Source: Verrucomicrobiota bacterium (GTDB taxonomy: Bacteria; Verrucomicrobiota; Verrucomicrobiia; Limisphaerales; Palsa-1400). From it: a stretch of 64,000 bases of DNA. Under the pieces are notes generated by a model. It had not been told where the DNA came from and searched no databases. It was given only the letters and a program-made list of their open reading frames with translations. The stretch is from contig JBEKYR010000012.1 in assembly GCA_049510745.1 (NCBI GenBank), positions 1-64,000 of the forward strand, written 5' to 3'. The position numbers and the translations under genes are program-made. This document shows positions 25,605 to 35,826 of this stretch, piece by piece; positions within the stretch are counted from its first letter, which is position 1; every line of letters starts with the position of its first letter.

Positions 25605-27719
25605 ATGATCAGCCTGGTCGATGCTCAACCCGCCGGGGCGCCGGCCGGCCTGGTCGCGCAGGTCGCGGAAATTTTCTCGCCCGCCGGGATTTTGTCCAAA
25701 TCCCCCAACTTCGAATACCGTCCGCAACAGCAGCAAATGGCGGTGGCGGTGGCGCGGGCGTTGGAAGAAAACGAGCATTTGATCGTCGAAGCCGGCACCG
25801 GCGTGGGCAAGAGCCTGGCCTACTTGATTCCGGCCATTTTTCACGCCGTGGCGCGGAACCGGAAGGCCGTCATCTCGACGCACACCATTAATTTGCAGGA
25901 GCAACTGATCCAAAAAGACCTGCCGATGCTGAAACACATCCTGCCGGTCGAGTTCAAATTTTCCATGCTCAAGGGCCGCCAGAATTATCTCTGCACCCGC
26001 CGCCTCTGGAAAGTGCGGCAGCAGGGACAGCAGCTTTTCACCTCGACAGGCCAGCAGGAGTTGGAGCGCATTCACGAATGGTCCCTGAAAACGGACGAGG
26101 GAAGCCTGTCGGATTTCGAGGTCGAGCCGGACCCGCAAGTGTGGCAGCAGGTCTGCTCGGAGCGGGGCTTGTGCAGTCCCAAATCGTGCGGGCGCGGGTC
26201 GGATTTTGTAAAGGGCGGCGGGGTCCCGTGCTTTTATCAGCAGGCGCGCAGCCAGATGCTCGGCGCGGACGTGCTGGTGCTCAATCACACGCTGCTGTTC
26301 ACGCAATTGGGCGGACGGGAGGACGAAGCGGCCGGTGGCGTGCTGTTCCGGAACGATTTTGTCGTCTTTGACGAGGCGCACACGGTCGAGCGGGTGGCCT
26401 CGGCCCACATCGGCCTGAGCGTTTCCACCGCCCAAGTGCGCTACGGATTGCAACGGCTCTGGAACCCCAAGACCAAGAAGGGCCTGCTGGCCGTCTTGCG
26501 CCGCGGCAAGGAGCAAGTGGTCGAGGAGGCGTTGAAGGAGGCGGACAAGTTTTTTGCCGCGGTCGAGGCGGCCTGCGACGAGATCGCCGCGCGGCGGGAA
26601 CGCCAGGCGGCGGCGCATACTTGGAGCGTCTTGCGCATCCGCCAATGCGATCTGGTGCCCGACACCCTCACCCTGCCTCTGGACCGGGTGCGGGAAGAGG
26701 TCAGCGCGCTGATTAAAACGGTCGATGACAAGGACACCGCGCAAGAATTGGCGGAGTGCAACCGGCGCCTGGCTGAGTTGCGCGAGGAACTGGCCATCTT
26801 TTTGGGTCAACGGGCCGAGGACCACGTCTATTGGGTGGAACGGACCGGCAAAGCCCAACGCCACCTGGCCCTCAACGCCGCTCCCATCAATGTGGCCGCT
26901 TATCTGCGCGAACGATTGTTCGGCTCGGACACTTCCGTCATCATGACCAGCGCGACCCTGGCGGTGAAACTGGACGAAAGCCCCGGCCCGGTTTCGCGCA
27001 AGCAGTCCGCTCCGCCGGACGCCGGCGCATCCGCCGACAAGGCGCCGCCGCTGCTTTATTTCGCCCGCCAAGTGGGCGGGGAAAAAGCCAATTTGCTCCA
27101 GGCCGGATCGCCCTTCGATTACGAGCGGCAAATGAAGCTCTATGTTGTCGGCAAGATGCCGGACCCGCGCGACGCCGGTTACCAAGCCAGCCTGGTCCAT
27201 TGGATCAAACACTTCGTGACCCTGACGCAGGGAAAGGCGTTTGTGCTCTTCACCAATTTCAAACTCATGCTGGAGGTGGGCGCGCAAATGGAGCCGTTTT
27301 TCGAGAAACTGGGGGTCGAATGTTTCGTGCAAGGCACCGGCACGCCCCGCTCGCTCATGCTGGAAAAATTCAAAAAGGACGTGCATTCCGTGCTCTTCGG
27401 AACGGACAGCTTTTGGCAGGGGGTCGATGTGCCCGGAGAGAGCCTTTCCAACGTCATCATCACGCGCCTGCCCTTCGCCGTGCCCGACCATCCGTTGATC
27501 GAGGCGCGGATCGAGGCCATCGAAGCGCGCGGCGGCAATTCCTTCCTGGAATTCTCCCTGCCCGAAGCCGTCTTGAAATTCCGTCAGGGCGTTGGAAGAT
27601 TGATCCGGGCAAAAACCGACACCGGCATCGTGGTCGTGCTGGACAATCGAATCCTGACCAAGCGCTACGGCCGGGCCTTCCTTTCCTCAGCCCCTAAATG
27701 CCCGGTGGAAATTGTTTGA
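25605..27719 (+). CDS. DinG/YoaA-family ATP-dependent helicase
   Basis: EAGTGVGKS, KGRQNYLC, Fe-S cysteines, DEAH, TSATL, FWQGVDVPG, QGVGRLIR. Confidence 0.93.
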   Translation: MISLVDAQPAGAPAGLVAQVAEIFSPAGILSKSPNFEYRPQQQQMAVAVARALEENEHLIVEAGTGVGKSLAYLIPAIFHAVARNRKAVISTHTINLQEQLIQKDLPMLKHILPVEFKFSMLKGRQNYLCTRRLWKVRQQGQQLFTSTGQQELERIHEWSLKTDEGSLSDFEVEPDPQVWQQVCSERGLCSPKSCGRGSDFVKGGGVPCFYQQARSQMLGADVLVLNHTLLFTQLGGREDEAAGGVLFRNDFVVFDEAHTVERVASAHIGLSVSTAQVRYGLQRLWNPKTKKGLLAVLRRGKEQVVEEALKEADKFFAAVEAACDEIAARRERQAAAHTWSVLRIRQCDLVPDTLTLPLDRVREEVSALIKTVDDKDTAQELAECNRRLAELREELAIFLGQRAEDHVYWVERTGKAQRHLALNAAPINVAAYLRERLFGSDTSVIMTSATLAVKLDESPGPVSRKQSAPPDAGASADKAPPLLYFARQVGGEKANLLQAGSPFDYERQMKLYVVGKMPDPRDAGYQASLVHWIKHFVTLTQGKAFVLFTNFKLMLEVGAQMEPFFEKLGVECFVQGTGTPRSLMLEKFKKDVHSVLFGTDSFWQGVDVPGESLSNVIITRLPFAVPDHPLIEARIEAIEARGGNSFLEFSLPEAVLKFRQGVGRLIRAKTDTGIVVVLDNRILTKRYGRAFLSSAPKCPVEIV

Positions 27720-27724
27720 AGACC

Positions 27725-29545
27725 ATGCCATTCTCACCCGTCACGAACACGACTGCGAAAGCTGAACTTGATAATCTCTATGCCCGATTGAAGGGCATTC
27801 GCCAATTGCGGGGCGCGATGACCTCCCAAACCCCCAAGGATTTTAACCAGATTGTCGCAAGGCTCGGTGCCCTCCATGTTCTCACAGAGAAGGAAGTGTT
27901 TTCGCTCCGCGTTAATGAGTTTGCAGGGATACAGGAAGCAATGTTCTCAGGAATTCCAGAAAGAGCTGCCCAGTTATTGGCACTTTTAGAGCACCGAAAT
28001 TCGAAGACAATCGAGACTAAGGATGGCGCGAACGCGCCAAAAACAAGTATGGCCGCCAAAATCAAATTCAATGCGAGACGACTGATGGAGAAGGCCATCG
28101 AGGTGATGAGGCAGTCTCTTCAGGAGCCGCGAAGGGATGGCAAGTCGCCACCCAAGGTGGGTGCGGTGCTTTATAAAGCGGATGGTTCGATCGAAGCGGC
28201 GTGCCGCGGCGAGTTGCGTTGGGGAGATCACGCCGAGTTTGCCTTGCTCGAACGAAAGAACCGGCACAGCAGGCTGGACGGGGCAAAACTGTTTACGACT
28301 TTAGAGCCGTGCGCGCCCGGAGCGCGGAAGCATCCCAAGCTCGCATGCGCCGAGCGCATCGTGAATGCGCGCATCAAAGAAGTGTGGGTGGGAATCGAAG
28401 ACCCCGACCCGACGGTGGATCGCAAGGGGATCAAGTTTCTGCAGGACTTCGGCGTGACGGTGCATATGTTCGAGCGGGATTTGCAGGAAATCATCAAGGC
28501 AGAGAACAAAGAGTTTATCAAACAGGCGTTGGCGCGGGCGGCAACCGCTGAAGAGGAGACGAAAGTCGTGACGTTGTCGGCTTTCGAGCAGCCGGTTGCC
28601 CATGCCGACTTGAAAGACTTCTCTGGTGAAGCGTTGGAGCAATACCGAGCGATTGCCAACATCAATGAGGCAGTTGGCTCGGAAGCGTTCAATCGCCGCC
28701 TGGTGCAGCAGGGTTTATTGCAAGCGAAGGGGAAGACATTTGTTCCTTCGGGCTTTGGGTTGCTGTTGTTCGGCAAGGCGCCGCGCGATTCGATGCCCCA
28801 GGCGGGATTACTTGGAACGATTCACCTTTCCGGCGGAAAGGAAGACACGCCGCGCAATTTTGACGGGCCGCAGGTTTTTGTTCCCGAACAGGCGCTCCGA
28901 TGGCTACGCGACAAATTGCCCAACCCGATTGACCGCTCGGAGGCGCGCCGGCAGGAATTAAACAGACCTTTTTTTGAACTGGTGCGCGAAGGCATCGTCA
29001 ACGCCCTTGTCCATCGTGATTACTCGATTGTCGGTGCGAAATGCCAGTTGGTTGTGACGTCAGACACCGTCGTCATCAAGAGCCCTGGCAAGCCGGTCGA
29101 ACCCATCACGCTTGGGCAATTGCAGGCTTTCAATGCGCCGATGTTGAGTCGCAACCCGACCCTTCACTACGTCTTTGCCAAAATGGAATTGGCGGAGGAA
29201 CGCGGGCTTGGGTTGAAGTCGATGCGGAATCGCGTCACTGAAGCCGGTCTTCCACTGCCAAATTACAGCTGGGAAAATCCTTATCTGGTATTGACGCTAT
29301 TCCGTAGTCCAGCCAGTGCTGTTCGTGGTTTGAGTCCCAAAGTGCTCGACCGTCTAAACGAAGGCGAGAAAGCATCTTGGCAGTTTGTCGCCGGCCGGGA
29401 ATCTGTAACTAGTCCGGAATTGATGAAGCAGATGGGCTTTGATGAACGCAAAGCTCAACGTGTCCTGAAGAAACTGCAGGCTGCCGGCTTGCTTCGCCGC
29501 GTTGGTAAGGGCCCGGCAACGCGTTACGAGATGGTTCGCCCATGA
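27725..29545 (+). CDS. Zn-dependent deaminase - HATPase_c_4-like - winged HTH fusion (alternative start 28049)
   Basis: HAE (28229-28237), TLEPC-x11-C, DPDP; REGIVNALVHRDY, SPG, SRNP, EERGLG; C-terminal wHTH ending RRVGKGPATRY. Confidence 0.8.
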   Translation: MPFSPVTNTTAKAELDNLYARLKGIRQLRGAMTSQTPKDFNQIVARLGALHVLTEKEVFSLRVNEFAGIQEAMFSGIPERAAQLLALLEHRNSKTIETKDGANAPKTSMAAKIKFNARRLMEKAIEVMRQSLQEPRRDGKSPPKVGAVLYKADGSIEAACRGELRWGDHAEFALLERKNRHSRLDGAKLFTTLEPCAPGARKHPKLACAERIVNARIKEVWVGIEDPDPTVDRKGIKFLQDFGVTVHMFERDLQEIIKAENKEFIKQALARAATAEEETKVVTLSAFEQPVAHADLKDFSGEALEQYRAIANINEAVGSEAFNRRLVQQGLLQAKGKTFVPSGFGLLLFGKAPRDSMPQAGLLGTIHLSGGKEDTPRNFDGPQVFVPEQALRWLRDKLPNPIDRSEARRQELNRPFFELVREGIVNALVHRDYSIVGAKCQLVVTSDTVVIKSPGKPVEPITLGQLQAFNAPMLSRNPTLHYVFAKMELAEERGLGLKSMRNRVTEAGLPLPNYSWENPYLVLTLFRSPASAVRGLSPKVLDRLNEGEKASWQFVAGRESVTSPELMKQMGFDERKAQRVLKKLQAAGLLRRVGKGPATRYEMVRP

Positions 29546-29556
29546 GTTTGTGTCCT

Positions 29557-29650
29557 GACAATAATCCCGACAAAGTGTCGGGATTCGGGTGGCTGCTGAG
29601 TCAGAAACTGGGAATCCCGACAATAATCCCGACAAAGTGTCGGGATTCGG
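29557..29650. repeat. Two identical 32-bp palindromic direct repeats, 30 bp apart
   Basis: GACAATAATCCCGACAAAGTGTCGGGATTCGG at 29557-29588 and 29619-29650. Confidence 0.9.
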
Positions 29651-29688
29651 CTTCCCGCAAAAGCCCATGCCTACAAATCCACCAAACC

Positions 29689-29727
29689 AAAACGGGTCAA
29701 TAACGAAAACGGGTCAAAACGGGGTCC
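29689..29727. repeat. AAAACGGGTCAA direct repeats
   Basis: Copies at 29689-29700 and 29706-29717, then AACGGGGTC. Confidence 0.7.
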
Positions 29728-30023
29728 CGCATCATCGCCTACTCTCGTCTTCTTCCCGCATCGCGCCGCAGGTTTGCCACGGAACCGGCAGCGCCCGTCA
29801 TGGCCATCCCATTTAAGCTCATCGTCGTTTCCTGGCGTGGCCGTCCCGTCGGCGTAATTCCTTCTTCCTTTTCCAGTCAGAGGGGTCATCCGCATGAAAC
29901 AATGGATCCTCACACTCTTCCTTTGTGAATTGAGAGATTCGCCAACGTCCAGGAATGCGATGCGTCCGGCCCGGGATCGGGTTTGCGCTTCAACGTTCCG
30001 GCTGCCATCCTTGTCCAAAAGGA

Positions 30024-33465: not shown

Positions 33466-33747
33466 GACCCGGTTTGCCCGCTGCTGCGCTCGTCAGAAAA
33501 GGACAATCAAATACGACGATGCCATTAACCAAGCCCTTTATCCTTCACGGTTAGCATATCTGGACGCGGTGTGAAACGAAGCGGCTGCCCTGGCCTCCAA
33601 GGGTTGCTTGAAGATGAACTGTGGCCGGATGAAATTGAAGGAAGGACAGTCAAATACGTCGCCCCTGCGCTGTTCTGCGGACCTTTGAGATAATGCGTTG
33701 GAGCTTGACTTTGGGGGCTGGCAGCGACATTGTCACAGTACAAGTTT

Positions 33748-34044
33748 ATGCGTACACTCCAAGAACATATTGATGATCTCGACCGTATGGTTGATGGCGG
33801 CGCTGAGAAACCAAAAGTGCGAAGCCAGATTGCCTTCATTGGGCGCGAGGTAGCCGCGCTTGAGGCAGATTATGCTCGTCTTGCAGAGGCGCATTCGAAG
33901 CTCCAAGCAACCCATTCTGAACTTGAGGCACAGCACACGGCACTCAAGGACGGGAAGCGCAAGGCCGGTTGGGATGCCCTTCAGAAGCAGGCGGATGATT
34001 ATGAGCGAATTGTCCGTAGCAAGGACTTGGACTATGGTGCGTAA
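33748..34044 (+). CDS. Small coiled-coil hypothetical protein
   Basis: Heptad pattern LEADYARLAEAHSKLQATHSELEAQH; lower-GC region. Confidence 0.6.
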   Translation: MRTLQEHIDDLDRMVDGGAEKPKVRSQIAFIGREVAALEADYARLAEAHSKLQATHSELEAQHTALKDGKRKAGWDALQKQADDYERIVRSKDLDYGA

Positions 34045-34074
34045 TAATTATTAGGACTGCTGGAGGACTTCAGC

Positions 34075-34524
34075 ATGAGCGCAATAACACTACAACCGTC
34101 GAACAAGACAGTGGGAGGCTGGCTAATCGCGCTCATTCTCTGGTTCGGCTTTTGGATACCTGCCGGTGTTCAAGGGGATACGGCGACCATTAAGATGTTT
34201 TTTGCTCCTGTTGTCAACCAGTCTCCAAGGTTGCGCACAGTGTCCAGCATATGCAGTTTGCTGTTATGGCTTACTGCAATTGTCAGCGTTTGTTCCGCGT
34301 ACGTTTTGGCTTTCAGGAAGCCAGCAGCCGTCATTATTGCGAAACGCGGCTTGATTGTAATAACGGTTGCGCGGTTGTGCTTAATGGTAGGCGTTCTACT
34401 ATTGGCGCAGCCTGCTTTACGGGACATTCCATTTGGTGTTTTGGCTAGTCCGCTGATCTGGCTGGCAATCTGGTACACTTATCTGGTTCGTTCCAAAAGA
34501 GTAAAGGAAACATATGTGCTTTAA
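34075..34524 (+). CDS. DUF2569-like membrane protein
   Basis: GGAGG RBS; N-terminal GGWL, 4 TM segments, C-terminal YLVRSKRVKETY. Confidence 0.7.
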   Translation: MSAITLQPSNKTVGGWLIALILWFGFWIPAGVQGDTATIKMFFAPVVNQSPRLRTVSSICSLLLWLTAIVSVCSAYVLAFRKPAAVIIAKRGLIVITVARLCLMVGVLLLAQPALRDIPFGVLASPLIWLAIWYTYLVRSKRVKETYVL

Positions 34525-34613
34525 GACCGCCCTGGAGCCAACGCCGATTGGGCCTTGCGTTCAGTTTTTGGGGCGTTGCGTTTTGTCGCGGTGTGGCTCA
34601 ACTGTGGTTTATA
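34519..34613 (+). mobile_element. Degenerate attC-like integron cassette recombination site
   Basis: CTTTAAG-5 nt-CCTGGAGCCAACGCCG ... CGGTGTGGCTCAAC-4 nt-GTTTATA; both R boxes are imperfect. Confidence 0.45.
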
Positions 34614-34626
34614 ACTCTTTGCCACC

Positions 34627-35223
34627 ATGCCACAAACTTTAAGTACAGTGAAGCAGGATGAATTCCTTGAAGACATTGTCCAAACGACGCTGGACAATTT
34701 CAGCATGGCTTGGCATTTGGTTTCTTTGCTCATTGCCTATAAGAGAGCGAATCTTCCGCTCCCGGCCGCGACAATCTATTTACAGGGTCAAGGGCCTCCG
34801 GCCCATATACCCGGTACGAATTGCGGGTTCTTTGCTATACCCGTTATTCATATGGCGATTTTTGATTGCCGACGCTCTTTGGAGTTTTTCGGTTTGACAT
34901 GCAATCACGACACGAATCGGCTAACGGCGATCAGACGCCGTCGCTCCGATGACCTTGGGATTGAACATTTCGCATTAGCTCGGGTGACTCCCTCGCAGTT
35001 CGTTGAGGCAACGTCCACGGTGATTTGTGGTCAAGTTGAGCCGATTGTTGTGGACGTTCACAAATATGGCAACAAGCGCCTTGCACATTCCACGATGTCA
35101 GAATCCACCGTCATGCTTCCGGCCATTCGTGACATGTCAATTGTCCTGATTGAAGCCCACATGCGACTCCTCTTCGAGGCACTCGGACGGCCACGGCCAA
35201 GTATCAACCCATCTCCGATTTAA
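34627..35223 (+). CDS. Hypothetical protein, weakly HEPN-like
   Basis: 198-aa ORF; CRRSLEFF and GNKRLAH motifs. Confidence 0.55.
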   Translation: MPQTLSTVKQDEFLEDIVQTTLDNFSMAWHLVSLLIAYKRANLPLPAATIYLQGQGPPAHIPGTNCGFFAIPVIHMAIFDCRRSLEFFGLTCNHDTNRLTAIRRRRSDDLGIEHFALARVTPSQFVEATSTVICGQVEPIVVDVHKYGNKRLAHSTMSESTVMLPAIRDMSIVLIEAHMRLLFEALGRPRPSINPSPI

Positions 35224-35289
35224 AACACACAATCCAAAATGAGGGGTCAAGCCCGGAATTCGCGGTACGTTTACGGGGTCAAATTTGCG

Positions 35290-35601
35290 TCAGACGCGCT
35301 CATACACGGGAAACAACTCGTCCTTGACGCGGCCAAGAAGCAGCGGATGCAACCGCGAACAAAAATCCACCTTGCGTCCGATGATGGCCGCCAGTTCCTC
35401 GCCATAGCCGAAGTATTGGAAGCCGACGCTTTTCAATACCCCCGGCTCAAATTCCGCCAGCACGTCCACGTCGCTGCGCCGCGGATCGAAATCCGGGTGC
35501 AACACCGAACCGAACAAGCTCAATTTGCGAATACCGCGTTCCCGACAGAAACGCGCGATTTGCTCGCGGTCAATCTGAATGGGCAATTCGGCAACACTCA
35601 T
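35290..35601 (-). CDS. MNT-type minimal nucleotidyltransferase (MntA-like antitoxin)
   Basis: IARFCRERGIRKLSLFGSV..SDVDVLAEF..GRKVD. Confidence 0.88.
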   Translation of the reverse strand: MSVAELPIQIDREQIARFCRERGIRKLSLFGSVLHPDFDPRRSDVDVLAEFEPGVLKSVGFQYFGYGEELAAIIGRKVDFCSRLHPLLLGRVKDELFPVYERV

Positions 35602-35687
35602 GCGGACACGGTCGCTGAAATAAGAGAATTTGGCAACTGCTGAACCGGTTCCCTGATCCTCGCGGAACGAAAGGACGGCTGCGGATC

Positions 35688-35826
35688 GGGGAGCACACGC
35701 GCCCTCGCGTGTCGCCATTGGCGCCCTCGCCGATGGCATCAGCAAATTCCATAGGAAGTGTATAAGATTCAAAGATGTGGCCGGCGAGGGCGCCAGCCAC
35801 GACACGCGAGGGCGCGTGTACTCCCC
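35688..35826. repeat. REPIN-like long inverted repeat
   Basis: 45-bp arms GGGGAGCACACGCGCCCTCGCGTGTCG-N4-TGGCGCCCTCGCCG (35688-35732) and inverse (35782-35826). Confidence 0.85.

What the first reader, a model, noticed from the sequence alone, without database searches (positions are those of the whole stretch)
27725..29545. Zinc deaminase fused to HATPase_c_4 and winged HTH: candidate nucleotide-deaminating defence or regulatory effector
Seen: an intact CDA/RibD-type zinc site (HAE at 28229; PC-x11-C at 28307-28348; DPDP), followed by REGIVNALVHRDY/SPG/SRNP/EERGLG and a C-terminal wHTH, with no RibD reductase domain and no riboflavin genes nearby. Known: this NALxHRDY ATPase-like plus wHTH scaffold usually carries an N-terminal Schlafen/AlbA_2 effector, and dCTP deaminases act as anti-phage nucleotide-depleting enzymes. 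Inference: the effector slot has been swapped for a deaminase, giving a single-gene sensor-effector that may deplete nucleotides or edit nucleic acid. It sits directly behind dinG as a less GC-biased insertion with its own repeats.
Basis: partly seen in the sequence, partly recalled or inferred. Interest (0 to 1): 0.8.

Follow-up and report, generated by a model that had tools for sequence, protein, structure and literature searches.

The report
Deaminase effector with its own operator
A widespread, uncharacterised bacterial gene joins a base-deaminating enzyme to an ATP switch and a DNA-binding tail, and that tail appears to read a set of repeats lying right behind its own gene, which suggests a defence protein kept in check by its own DNA.

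Summary
The fusion is real: a RibD-like zinc deaminase, a PF13749 GHKL ATPase and a winged HTH, catalytic residues invariant in 90 of 90 diverse relatives. The family (about 497 aa; this copy has 108 extra N-terminal residues) is patchy (3 of 400 phylum genomes). It sits beside type I restriction-modification genes in 23 of 39 genome loci, and no riboflavin gene was seen. The 'own repeats' are the key: 32 of 36 relatives carry, behind the stop codon, two units 62 bp apart, each a 21-bp palindrome plus a third half-site. Their core bases track three residues of the HTH recognition helix, and HTH plus repeats are swapped as a cassette at about residue 530. No sites lie upstream. Best reading: a Schlafen-ATPase-type backup effector with a deaminase warhead, docked on its own 3' DNA array and activated by ATP-driven assembly on release. 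DNA binding is strongly inferred; defence is likely; lock-and-release and the substrate (probably a ribonucleotide or RNA, not dCTP) are untested.

The parts
27725..29545 (+). Gene for deaminase-GHKL ATPase-wHTH protein (606 aa from the first ATG; 498 aa from the family start at 28049)
27725..28048 (+). Private N-terminal helical module (residues 1-108), in frame; absent from the family; 74-75% identical to the N-terminus of a class III cyclase-like ORF in same-family genome G012 and 65% to a 192-aa hypothetical protein. Whether it is translated as part of the protein is not shown
28067..28540 (+). RibD-like zinc deaminase domain: R161 (28205), H169-A-E171 (28229-28237), C196, R201 (28325), C208 (28346-28348), D226-P-D228 (28400)
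28541..28954 (+). Middle subdomain shared with Schlafen-ATPase proteins such as DIP2311 (3LMM)
   Evidence: 3LMM Z 22.2, rmsd 3.1, 242 aligned
28955..29314 (+). GHKL (PF13749) ATPase; E422-x3-N426 (28988-29002) has the spacing of the ATP-gamma-phosphate/Mg ligands E314/N318 of RzAgo
29360..29542 (+). Winged HTH; recognition helix residues 574-586 (29444-29482), with E574, Q578 and R579 covarying with the repeat core
29553..29584 (.). Putative operator unit 1: direct half-site 29553-29560 plus perfect palindrome 29564-29584 (9-bp arms, 3-bp spacer, core CCCGAC)
29615..29646 (.). Putative operator unit 2, 62 bp after unit 1: direct half-site 29615-29622 plus perfect palindrome 29626-29646
25605..27719 (+). 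dinG-type helicase directly upstream; neighbour, not part of the system

Best explanation
A one-gene conflict (most likely anti-phage backup) effector built on the Schlafen-ATPase-HTH scaffold, with a zinc deaminase in the effector slot and a cis DNA array as its control element. SHOWN from sequence: three intact domains; patchy spread over many phyla; frequent seat inside type I RM operons; a six-half-site array behind the stop codon; base-by-residue covariation of the array with the HTH helix; exchange of HTH plus array as one cassette. STRONGLY INFERRED (about 0.9): the wHTH binds the array as double-stranded DNA. INFERRED from the homologous domain of RzAgo (about 0.75): the GHKL domain binds ATP and drives oligomerisation that switches on the effector. 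INFERRED from context (about 0.7): defence or conflict role. HYPOTHESIS (about 0.4): the array is a dock that holds the protein inactive and soaks it up in cis; loss, cleavage or out-competition of the array (host DNA degradation, DNA-mimic anti-restriction proteins, loss of the locus) frees it to assemble and deaminate, stalling the infected cell. SUBSTRATE (inference): a ribose-5'-phosphate-bearing base, i.e. a ribonucleotide (about 0.5; the RibD-type site suggests the 2-amino group of a guanine-like ring, or cytosine) or RNA/tRNA (about 0.25), ahead of dNTP/DNA (about 0.2). The window's copy is an orphan behind dinG that kept a perfect array.
For: Catalytic H169, E171, C196, C208 and ATPase E422, N426 invariant in 90 of 90 sequences down to 28% identity. 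Type I RM genes in 23 of 39 genome loci, 12 with hsdM/S upstream and hsdR downstream both in view, and in 8 of 34 metagenome loci (8 of 20 with at least 3 kb of flank). Slot-mates include Kiwa, CBASS, an AriAB-like protein, PsyrTA and GmrSD (30 hand-picked neighbours). Full-length gene in 1 of 60 relatives and 3 of 400 phylum genomes. Element within 130 nt of the stop in 32 of 36 loci with an intact 3' end, against 27 weaker hits in the 5.6-Mb own genome; a 7-mer in at least 4 copies on both strands in 45 of 63 3' ends against 4 of 630 shuffles. Third half-site at 11-12 bp in 94 of 108 palindromes against 4 of 108 on the other side; 62-bp spacing in 37 of 63 intervals; no G-U bias (31 G-U, 40 A-C). 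Operator type predicted by three helix residues in 44 of 57 loci, by the rest of the wHTH in 41 of 57, by deaminase+ATPase in 18 of 49; residue 578 is the top column for base 5 (MI 0.74, next 0.22). Single-residue exceptions follow the code in a foreign background (L090, L063, L066, L061, L083, L079). Fresh loci L189, L190 and L041 fit the rule, L188 at 2 of 3 bases. Pairs 86-92% identical up to residue 525 are 32-48% identical in the wHTH when the operator differs. No half-site in 26,465 nt upstream of 49 genes. PF13749 in RzAgo binds and hydrolyses ATP and drives the active tetramer (10.64898/2026.05.29.728809, sections 5 and 9). RibG K79, D101, N103 correspond to R201 (89 of 90), D226 (90 of 90), D/N228 (83 of 90) (PMC8256712 passages).
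Against: No activity, toxicity or phage phenotype has been measured. This copy has no RM or defence gene beside it; 16 of 39 genome loci and 26 of 34 metagenome loci show no hsd gene (many are short contigs). No PADLOC model covers the whole protein. In PMC13056530 (section 6) the two protective Schlafens of seven tested were not the HisKinase fusions. Helix and array lie about 120 nt apart, so linkage explains part of the covariation: the rest of the wHTH predicts almost as well (41 against 44 of 57). The residue rule was written after both main sets had been seen, so 32 of 35 and 20 of 23 are fits, not blind tests; L012, L072, L073 and L071 break it; six loci (L004, L036, L071, L079, L081, L085) gave no element with the fixed pattern. 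Nothing here tells whether DNA binding inhibits or activates. The base-reading His of RibD is replaced by Arg161, so the substrate cannot be read off.
Confidence: 0.5

Rival explanations
1. Transcription regulator: the protein binds the array as a roadblock or promoter control for what follows (hsdR in RM operons) or to limit its own mRNA; deaminase and ATPase act as metabolic sensors or a side activity.
For: The array lies between the gene and hsdR in many loci. An earlier scan note (e1-7900240) reports a Schlafen-ATPase-HTH gene with the same repeat in its CDS and over its promoter. wHTH-operator pairs normally regulate transcription (established knowledge).
Against: Perfect arrays persist in orphan copies and where the next called gene is on the opposite strand (L007, L008, L009, L013). 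No sites within 600 nt upstream of 49 genes and no array upstream of 11 hsdM genes. A plain regulator does not explain an invariant catalytic deaminase.
Confidence: 0.22
2. Selfish addiction module: the array is a DNA antitoxin that stabilises the island; cells that lose it are poisoned, and new helix/array types arise to invade hosts with a resident copy. Phage defence is incidental.
For: Cassette swapping and relic palindromes of other types in 62-bp register; survival as an orphan in varied sites.
Against: No match at E 1e-20 among 72,556 plasmids and no full-length match among 50,697 phages, where addiction modules are expected; RM-slot enrichment fits defence.
Confidence: 0.12
3. The array activates rather than locks: binding assembles the oligomer, and the deaminase edits nearby DNA or nascent RNA, or fires when array copy number rises.
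For: Six half-sites in fixed phase would suit assembly of a tetramer or hexamer; the deaminase domain is basic (32 K+R against 24 D+E).
Against: A permanently active editor on its own locus would be costly; retained ribose-binding residues argue against a DNA substrate.
Confidence: 0.08
4. The repeats work as RNA hairpins (3' UTR or small-RNA antitoxin, as in type III toxin-antitoxin systems).
For: The sense strand folds well (z -4.27).
Against: Any palindrome folds; mismatches show no G-U preference (31 against 40 A-C), the unpaired third half-site is conserved, spacing is fixed at about six helical turns, and the core tracks an HTH recognition helix.
Confidence: 0.05
5. Metabolic enzyme: a second riboflavin-pathway or salvage deaminase under transcriptional control.
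For: Closest solved deaminases are RibD/RibG; phosphate and ribose contacts are kept.
Against: No reductase; complete ribD elsewhere in the genome; no riboflavin gene among 221 neighbouring ORFs scanned at E 1e-8; patchy distribution.
Confidence: 0.03

Closest known systems
Schlafen-GHKL-HTH proteins ('Schlatpase', 10.64898/2026.05.29.728809; pSlfn HisKinase-HTH, PMC13056530; COG2865; DIP2311, PDB 3LMM)
   Same: Middle subdomain, PF13749 ATPase with E-x3-N, C-terminal wHTH, association with type I RM.
   Different: A zinc deaminase replaces the Schlafen RNase. The passages read describe no operator or palindrome (0 hits for 'palindrom' and 'operator'; 0 for 'operator') and no deaminase version.
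SLFN-pAgo RzAgo (10.64898/2026.05.29.728809)
   Same: GHKL domain gating an N-terminal effector; a C-terminal nucleic-acid-binding part that, in RzAgo, holds the effector in an inactive assembly until a trigger (abstract, sections 5 and 9).
   Different: No Argonaute and no guide RNA; the C-terminal part is a wHTH with a fixed DNA array at its own locus; lock-and-release is shown for RzAgo and only proposed here.
RibD/RibG pyrimidine deaminase (riboflavin pathway)
   Same: Fold (Z 20.5, rmsd 2.5, 146 aligned to 4G3M), HxE and PCxnC, phosphate and ribose contacts.
   Different: No reductase, C-x11-C, Arg161 in place of the His before HAE, no conserved His in the CxxC insert, defence context.
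RM-embedded backup effectors such as PrrC and PARIS (recalled)
   Same: Passenger gene between hsdS and hsdR; ATPase-gated effector.
   Different: GHKL not ABC ATPase; deaminase not nuclease; own DNA array; also found as an orphan.
Defence deaminases: dCTP deaminase Dcd/AvcD, RADAR RdrB, Kongming (recalled)
   Same: Deamination as the likely effector chemistry.
   Different: Other deaminase clades and partners; the PADLOC dCTPase model hits only 52 residues at E 0.005.

Membership tests
Schlatpase / pSlfn HisKinase-HTH | N-terminal SLFN_AlbA_2 domain (PF04326) | tested here: not met
   No PF04326 hit at E 0.05; a deaminase occupies the slot
Schlatpase / pSlfn HisKinase-HTH | PF13749 GHKL ATPase with catalytic E-x3-N | tested here: met
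   PF13749 2e-15; E422 and N426 in 90 of 90; matched to RzAgo E314/N318 by spacing, not by alignment
Schlatpase / pSlfn HisKinase-HTH | C-terminal HTH | tested here: met
   Three helices and a wing in the model; weak Pfam wHTH hits
Schlatpase / pSlfn HisKinase-HTH | ATP binding, hydrolysis and ATP-driven oligomer | not testable with these tools
   Needs biochemistry
RibD/RibG | HxE and PCxnC zinc site on a RibD-type fold | tested here: met
   (spacing x11 here; x8-9 stated for Rib2 in PMC8256712)
RibD/RibG | C-terminal DHFR-like reductase | tested here: not met
   NCBIfam RibD models hit residues 138-266 only, far below cut-off; Pfam
RibD/RibG | Phosphate (K79) and ribose (D101, N103) contacts | tested here: met
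   R201 89 of 90, D226 90 of 90, D/N228 83 of 90
RibD/RibG | Conserved His in the CxxC insert (PMC3239186, table passage) | tested here: not met
   Pro or gap at the position of B. subtilis PCSH; H203 in only 43 of 90. The genome's own RibD also lacks it, so the feature is soft
RibD/RibG | Riboflavin gene context | tested here: not met
   None among 221 neighbouring ORFs of 39 loci at E 1e-8
dCTP deaminase defence (Dcd/AvcD) | Full-length match to the family model | tested here: not met
   PADLOC dCTPase: residues 169-220, E 0.0046
dCTP deaminase defence (Dcd/AvcD) | dCTP depletion on infection | not testable with these tools
   Needs LC-MS
RM-embedded backup effector (PrrC-like) | Seat inside a type I RM operon | tested here: inconclusive
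   Met in 23 of 39 and 8 of 34 relatives, not in this copy
RM-embedded backup effector (PrrC-like) | Activation when RM is inhibited | not testable with these tools
   Needs experiments
Type III toxin-antitoxin (recalled definition) | Tandem RNA repeats upstream of the toxin | tested here: not met
   Repeats are downstream, palindromic, without G-U bias; none upstream

The most novel reading that the evidence does not exclude
A class of single-gene immune or addiction systems in which the antitoxin is a stretch of double-stranded DNA: the effector is docked by its wHTH on an array behind its own gene, reports the integrity or accessibility of the host chromosome, and diversifies by swapping HTH-plus-array cassettes under a readable three-residue code. 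The same logic may govern the far larger Schlafen-ATPase-HTH family, and the warhead may be a guanine-nucleotide or RNA deaminase of a kind not yet known in defence.
Probability: 0.3. Interest if true: 0.92.

Novelty: new variant of a known kind. Interest (0 to 1): 0.8.

Why it matters
Schlafen-ATPase proteins are the most common prokaryotic Schlafen form (58.6% of 103,533), yet what the HTH-bearing ones sense is unknown. This family gives a concrete, testable answer for the scaffold: the HTH has a cognate array at the gene's 3' end, predictable from three residues. Cloning such genes with or without that array could decide whether toxicity or defence is seen. It also adds an undescribed deaminase clade with hundreds of divergent members (523 clusters at E 1e-30), of interest for nucleotide-depletion immunity and base-editing enzymes, and a natural set of orthogonal protein-DNA pairs.

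Tried and rejected
Literature: ten searches of the held library. HATPase_c_4 + deaminase, 0 papers (14); GHKL + winged helix + palindromic + downstream + defense + deaminase, 0 (72); palindromic/RhuM/YhcG/ORF6N/operator/restriction-modification, at least 4 terms, 0 (48); RibD + deaminase + phage + defense system + ATPase, 1 unrelated (28); COG2865, 8 listed, none on this by title or abstract start (80). Most subscription papers are not in the library and no supplement was read (bioRxiv ones are closed; those of PMC3239186 and PMC13056530 were not opened and could list this architecture). Complex prediction of a two-copy fragment with ATP and Mg returned no verdict. No RNA holder was listed. 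Plasmids: no match at E 1e-20; phages: 11 records with partial ATPase-HTH matches only. Viral contigs: 1 of 49 loci has the deaminase, without the ATPase in that ORF. Sigma-70 promoter and terminator scan: nothing. N-terminal module: Atlas hits under 0.9, no stand-alone relative, not found in 300 genomes of the order. Empty site behind dinG not definable. Repeats as a genome-wide REP or insertion scar rejected: the paired form occurs only here in the genome. Promoter operator rejected for this family. The careful tree did not finish; the quick tree of 49 rows was used only to show that operator types are scattered. Earlier-findings look-ups by sequence and place were empty.
Full report
1. Observation. 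The ORF at 27725-29545 encodes 606 residues and starts 5 nt after the dinG stop. Pfam gives a CDA-type deaminase (121-223), HATPase_c_4 (437-524) and a weak wHTH (558-606). An AlphaFold2 model of residues 109-606 from a 90-sequence alignment has mean pLDDT 91.9. Its best structural matches are DIP2311 (3LMM, Z 22.2, rmsd 3.1, 242 aligned) for the middle and ATPase part and RibG (4G3M, Z 20.5, rmsd 2.5, 146 aligned) for the deaminase, ahead of TadA and cytosine deaminase (Z about 15). There is no reductase, and the genome has a complete ribD on another contig. GC3 is 0.63 against 0.75-0.83 in three neighbours.

2. The family. A word-indexed search gave 3,039 proteins at E 0.001; of the best 120 listed, nearly all are about 497 aa and match residues 109-606. 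A profile of the deaminase alone found 523 clusters (50% identity) at E 1e-30; most full-length ones among the best 150 carry the ATPase and wHTH, and some have other partners, one of them AbiTii (30 proteins scanned). Residues 1-108 are not part of the family; they match the N-terminus of a cyclase-like ORF in genome G012 (74-75%) and one hypothetical protein. Other members also carry private N-terminal additions. The gene is patchy: full length in 1 of 60 relatives and 3 of 400 phylum genomes, yet present in Verrucomicrobiota, Planctomycetota, Pseudomonadota, Cyanobacteriota, Acidobacteriota and an archaeon, among others. H169, E171, C196, C208, E422 and N426 are invariant in 90 of 90 diverse sequences.

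3. Context. I called ORFs in the 39 genome loci with a simple script and scanned 221 of them (up to three on each side plus hand-picked larger ones) against Pfam. Type I RM genes are present in 23 of 39 loci, and in 12 the gene is seen between hsdM/hsdS and hsdR; no riboflavin gene appeared. In 34 metagenome loci hsd genes were found in 8, or 8 of 20 with at least 3 kb of flank. Thirty hand-picked neighbours include Kiwa, CBASS, an AriAB-like protein, PsyrTA, GmrSD and RhuM. The remaining loci are orphans in unrelated sites, like the window's copy. The gene after dinG differs in all 5 relatives checked, so no empty site can be drawn.

4. The repeats. Behind the stop lie two units, each a half-site followed by a 21-bp palindrome: half-sites at 29553, 29565 and 29576 (inverted), then 29615, 29627 and 29638 (inverted). 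They are a family trait. With L030, L034 and L039 left out (3' end broken or missing), 32 of 36 genome loci have such a palindrome within 130 nt of the stop; the own genome has 27 other, weaker hits in 5.6 Mb. A pattern-free count finds a 7-mer in at least 4 copies on both strands in 45 of 63 family 3' ends and in 4 of 630 shuffles. Over 108 palindromes the third half-site is kept at 12 bp (85) or 11 bp (9), against 4 of 108 on the other side; successive palindromes are 62 bp apart in 37 of 63 intervals; mismatches show no G-U bias (31 G-U, 40 A-C, 66 other). The strand folds as RNA (z -4.27), but these features fit a double-stranded protein-binding site better. Each locus's own half-site occurs 173 times in 10,290 nt behind 49 genes and 0 times in 26,465 nt in front of them; no array was seen upstream of 11 hsdM genes.

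5. A recognition code. The core varies between loci (CCCGAC, CGCGAC, CCCGCC, CCGGAC, CCTGCC, CGGGCC, CGCGCC, CCGGCC) and tracks the third helix of the wHTH. In the model that helix runs from 574 to 586, so 574, 575, 578 and 579 are its positions 1, 2, 5 and 6, the usual base-reading positions of an HTH (recalled). Residue 578 Q/L goes with C at base 5, R/K with G, M with T; residue 579 R goes with A at base 7, N/H with C; residue 574 E/N favours C at base 4. Among 58 labelled loci, leave-one-out nearest neighbours recover the operator type from deaminase+ATPase in 18 of 49, from the wing in 35 of 57, from the wHTH without the helix in 41 of 57 and from the three residues in 44 of 57; trained on genome loci and tested on the others the figures are 4 of 16, 11 of 22, 13 of 22 and 16 of 22. 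Residue 578 is the top column for base 5 (MI 0.74, next 0.22); for base 7 the top are 573 and 579, for base 4, 563 and 574. The written rule fits 32 of 35 and 20 of 23 loci, but I wrote it after seeing both sets; loci read afterwards fit (L189, L190, L041) or fit at 2 of 3 bases with a new residue (L188). Linkage accounts for part of the signal. The cases it does not explain are single changes in a foreign background, such as L090 (Q578R, CCGGAC), L063 (E574Q, CGCGAC), L061 and L083 (N574K, CGCGCC) and L079 (E574 in a distant member, CCCGAC). Exceptions are L012, L072, L073 and L071; L004 and L036, and four distant members, gave no element with the fixed pattern, though L071, L079, L081 and L085 show arrays of other sequence or spacing by eye.

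6. Cassette exchange. Pairs that are 86-92% identical over residues 113-524 are 32-48% identical in the wHTH where helix type and operator differ most (for example L029/L031, L029/L038, L001/L002, L023/L027; closer types such as L031/L038 keep 61-68%), with a sharp drop at about residue 530. Several loci carry further single palindromes of other types in the same 62-bp register (L001, L007, L021, L031, L035, L058, L060, L082, L041). I infer that new HTH-plus-array modules replace old ones by recombination and leave relics. Such turnover of specificity on a conserved enzyme is typical of conflict systems (inference).

7. The scaffold at large. Among 69 distant ATPase-HTH genes without the deaminase, 13 have at least 6 copies of a short motif at the 3' end and 11 in the linker before the HTH, against 2 of 181 background windows; the fixed deaminase-type element is absent within 130 nt. 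Of 25 hand-picked ones, 19 carry Schlafen and 6 DUF4062 at the N-terminus. An earlier scan note reports a similar in-gene repeat for a Schlafen-ATPase-HTH gene, there matched by a promoter copy (e1-7900240); it agrees on self-binding and differs on the promoter.

8. Mechanism. In RzAgo the same PF13749 domain binds and hydrolyses ATP through E314/N318 and drives the tetramer that reconstitutes the nuclease, while the guide-bound Argonaute part holds the effector apart in a filament (10.64898/2026.05.29.728809; abstract, passages, sections 5 and 9). By analogy I propose that the wHTH docks the protein on its own six half-sites in an inactive state, and that loss or competition of that DNA frees it for ATP-driven assembly and deamination. 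The direction of control is not shown. For the substrate, RibG uses K79 for the phosphate and D101/N103 for the ribose hydroxyls (PMC8256712, passages); the family keeps R201, D226 and D/N228, and has an invariant Arg161 where RibD has His and TadA has Asn. That favours a ribonucleotide or RNA over dCTP or DNA; the base is open.

9. Against. Nothing was measured. This copy has no defence neighbour. No defence-library model covers the protein. In the one phage test read, the protective Schlafens were not HisKinase fusions (PMC13056530, section 6 and passages). A regulator of the downstream gene remains possible, though orphan copies keep the array.

10. Known or new. The scaffold is known and is called a likely backup effector beside BREX and RM (PMC12839542, passages). 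The deaminase classification of PMC3239186 (passages) does not mention this fusion in the passages seen. Ten searches of the held library showed no description of the deaminase form or of the 3' array; subscription papers and supplements were not seen. Verdict: a new variant of a known kind, with an undescribed cis element and a readable code; interest 0.8. PrrC, PARIS, Dcd/AvcD, RADAR, Kongming, type III TA and the HTH base-reading positions are recalled, not taken from a call.

Noticed in passing
window 33500-35810: Low-GC patch (0.48-0.55) with a DUF2569 gene (34075-34524), two ORFs without family (33730-34044 minus, 34627-35223) and a minimal nucleotidyltransferase (35290-35805 minus) with no clear HEPN partner; looks like a small variable island.
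   Followed up: partly
window 29685-29717: A second short direct repeat (16 nt, two copies 17 bp apart) after the operator; a stretch near 29717-29760 has weak matches at five other places in the genome. Unexplained.
   Followed up: no
L043:1489-2265 (G012): The window's private N-terminal module heads a class III cyclase-like ORF in a region with integrase-like and HNH-like ORFs and an ORF that looks TIR-like by recalled motif; a small mobile domain of unknown role.
   Followed up: partly
L001, L007, L021, L031, L035, L041, L058, L060, L082: 130-250 nt behind the stop: Extra single palindromes of other core types continue in 62-bp register, probably relics of earlier HTH cassettes or spare sites for other specificities.
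   Followed up: partly
L106, L111, L113, L124, L134 (Schlafen type or partial) and L093, L097, L098, L101 (DUF4062 type), gene ends: Distant ATPase-wHTH genes carry tandem half-site arrays at the stop codon; L106 has the same half-site as the window, and L113 has a CCGGAC-type site with Arg at the matching helix position. Others hold 12-bp in-frame repeats before the HTH.
   Followed up: partly
L082:3308-4072; L042 (G011); L030; L037: Broken family members: L082 has lost the ATPase but keeps deaminase, wHTH and array; G011 keeps only the 3' end with one palindrome; L030 is split by an inversion inside an RM operon; L037 is in two ORFs.
   Followed up: no
P0263, P0266, P0258, P0157, P0178, P0194: The same deaminase clade occurs fused to AbiTii and to large domains without Pfam match, and some full members carry other N-terminal additions.
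   Followed up: partly
G000:C12:70885-71133 (L052), just outside the window: A second PF13749 gene in this genome, without the palindrome described here.
   Followed up: partly
L007:8350-8430; L022:9990-10075: Further operator-like palindromes 0.5-2.3 kb behind the gene, possibly remnants of other copies.
   Followed up: no
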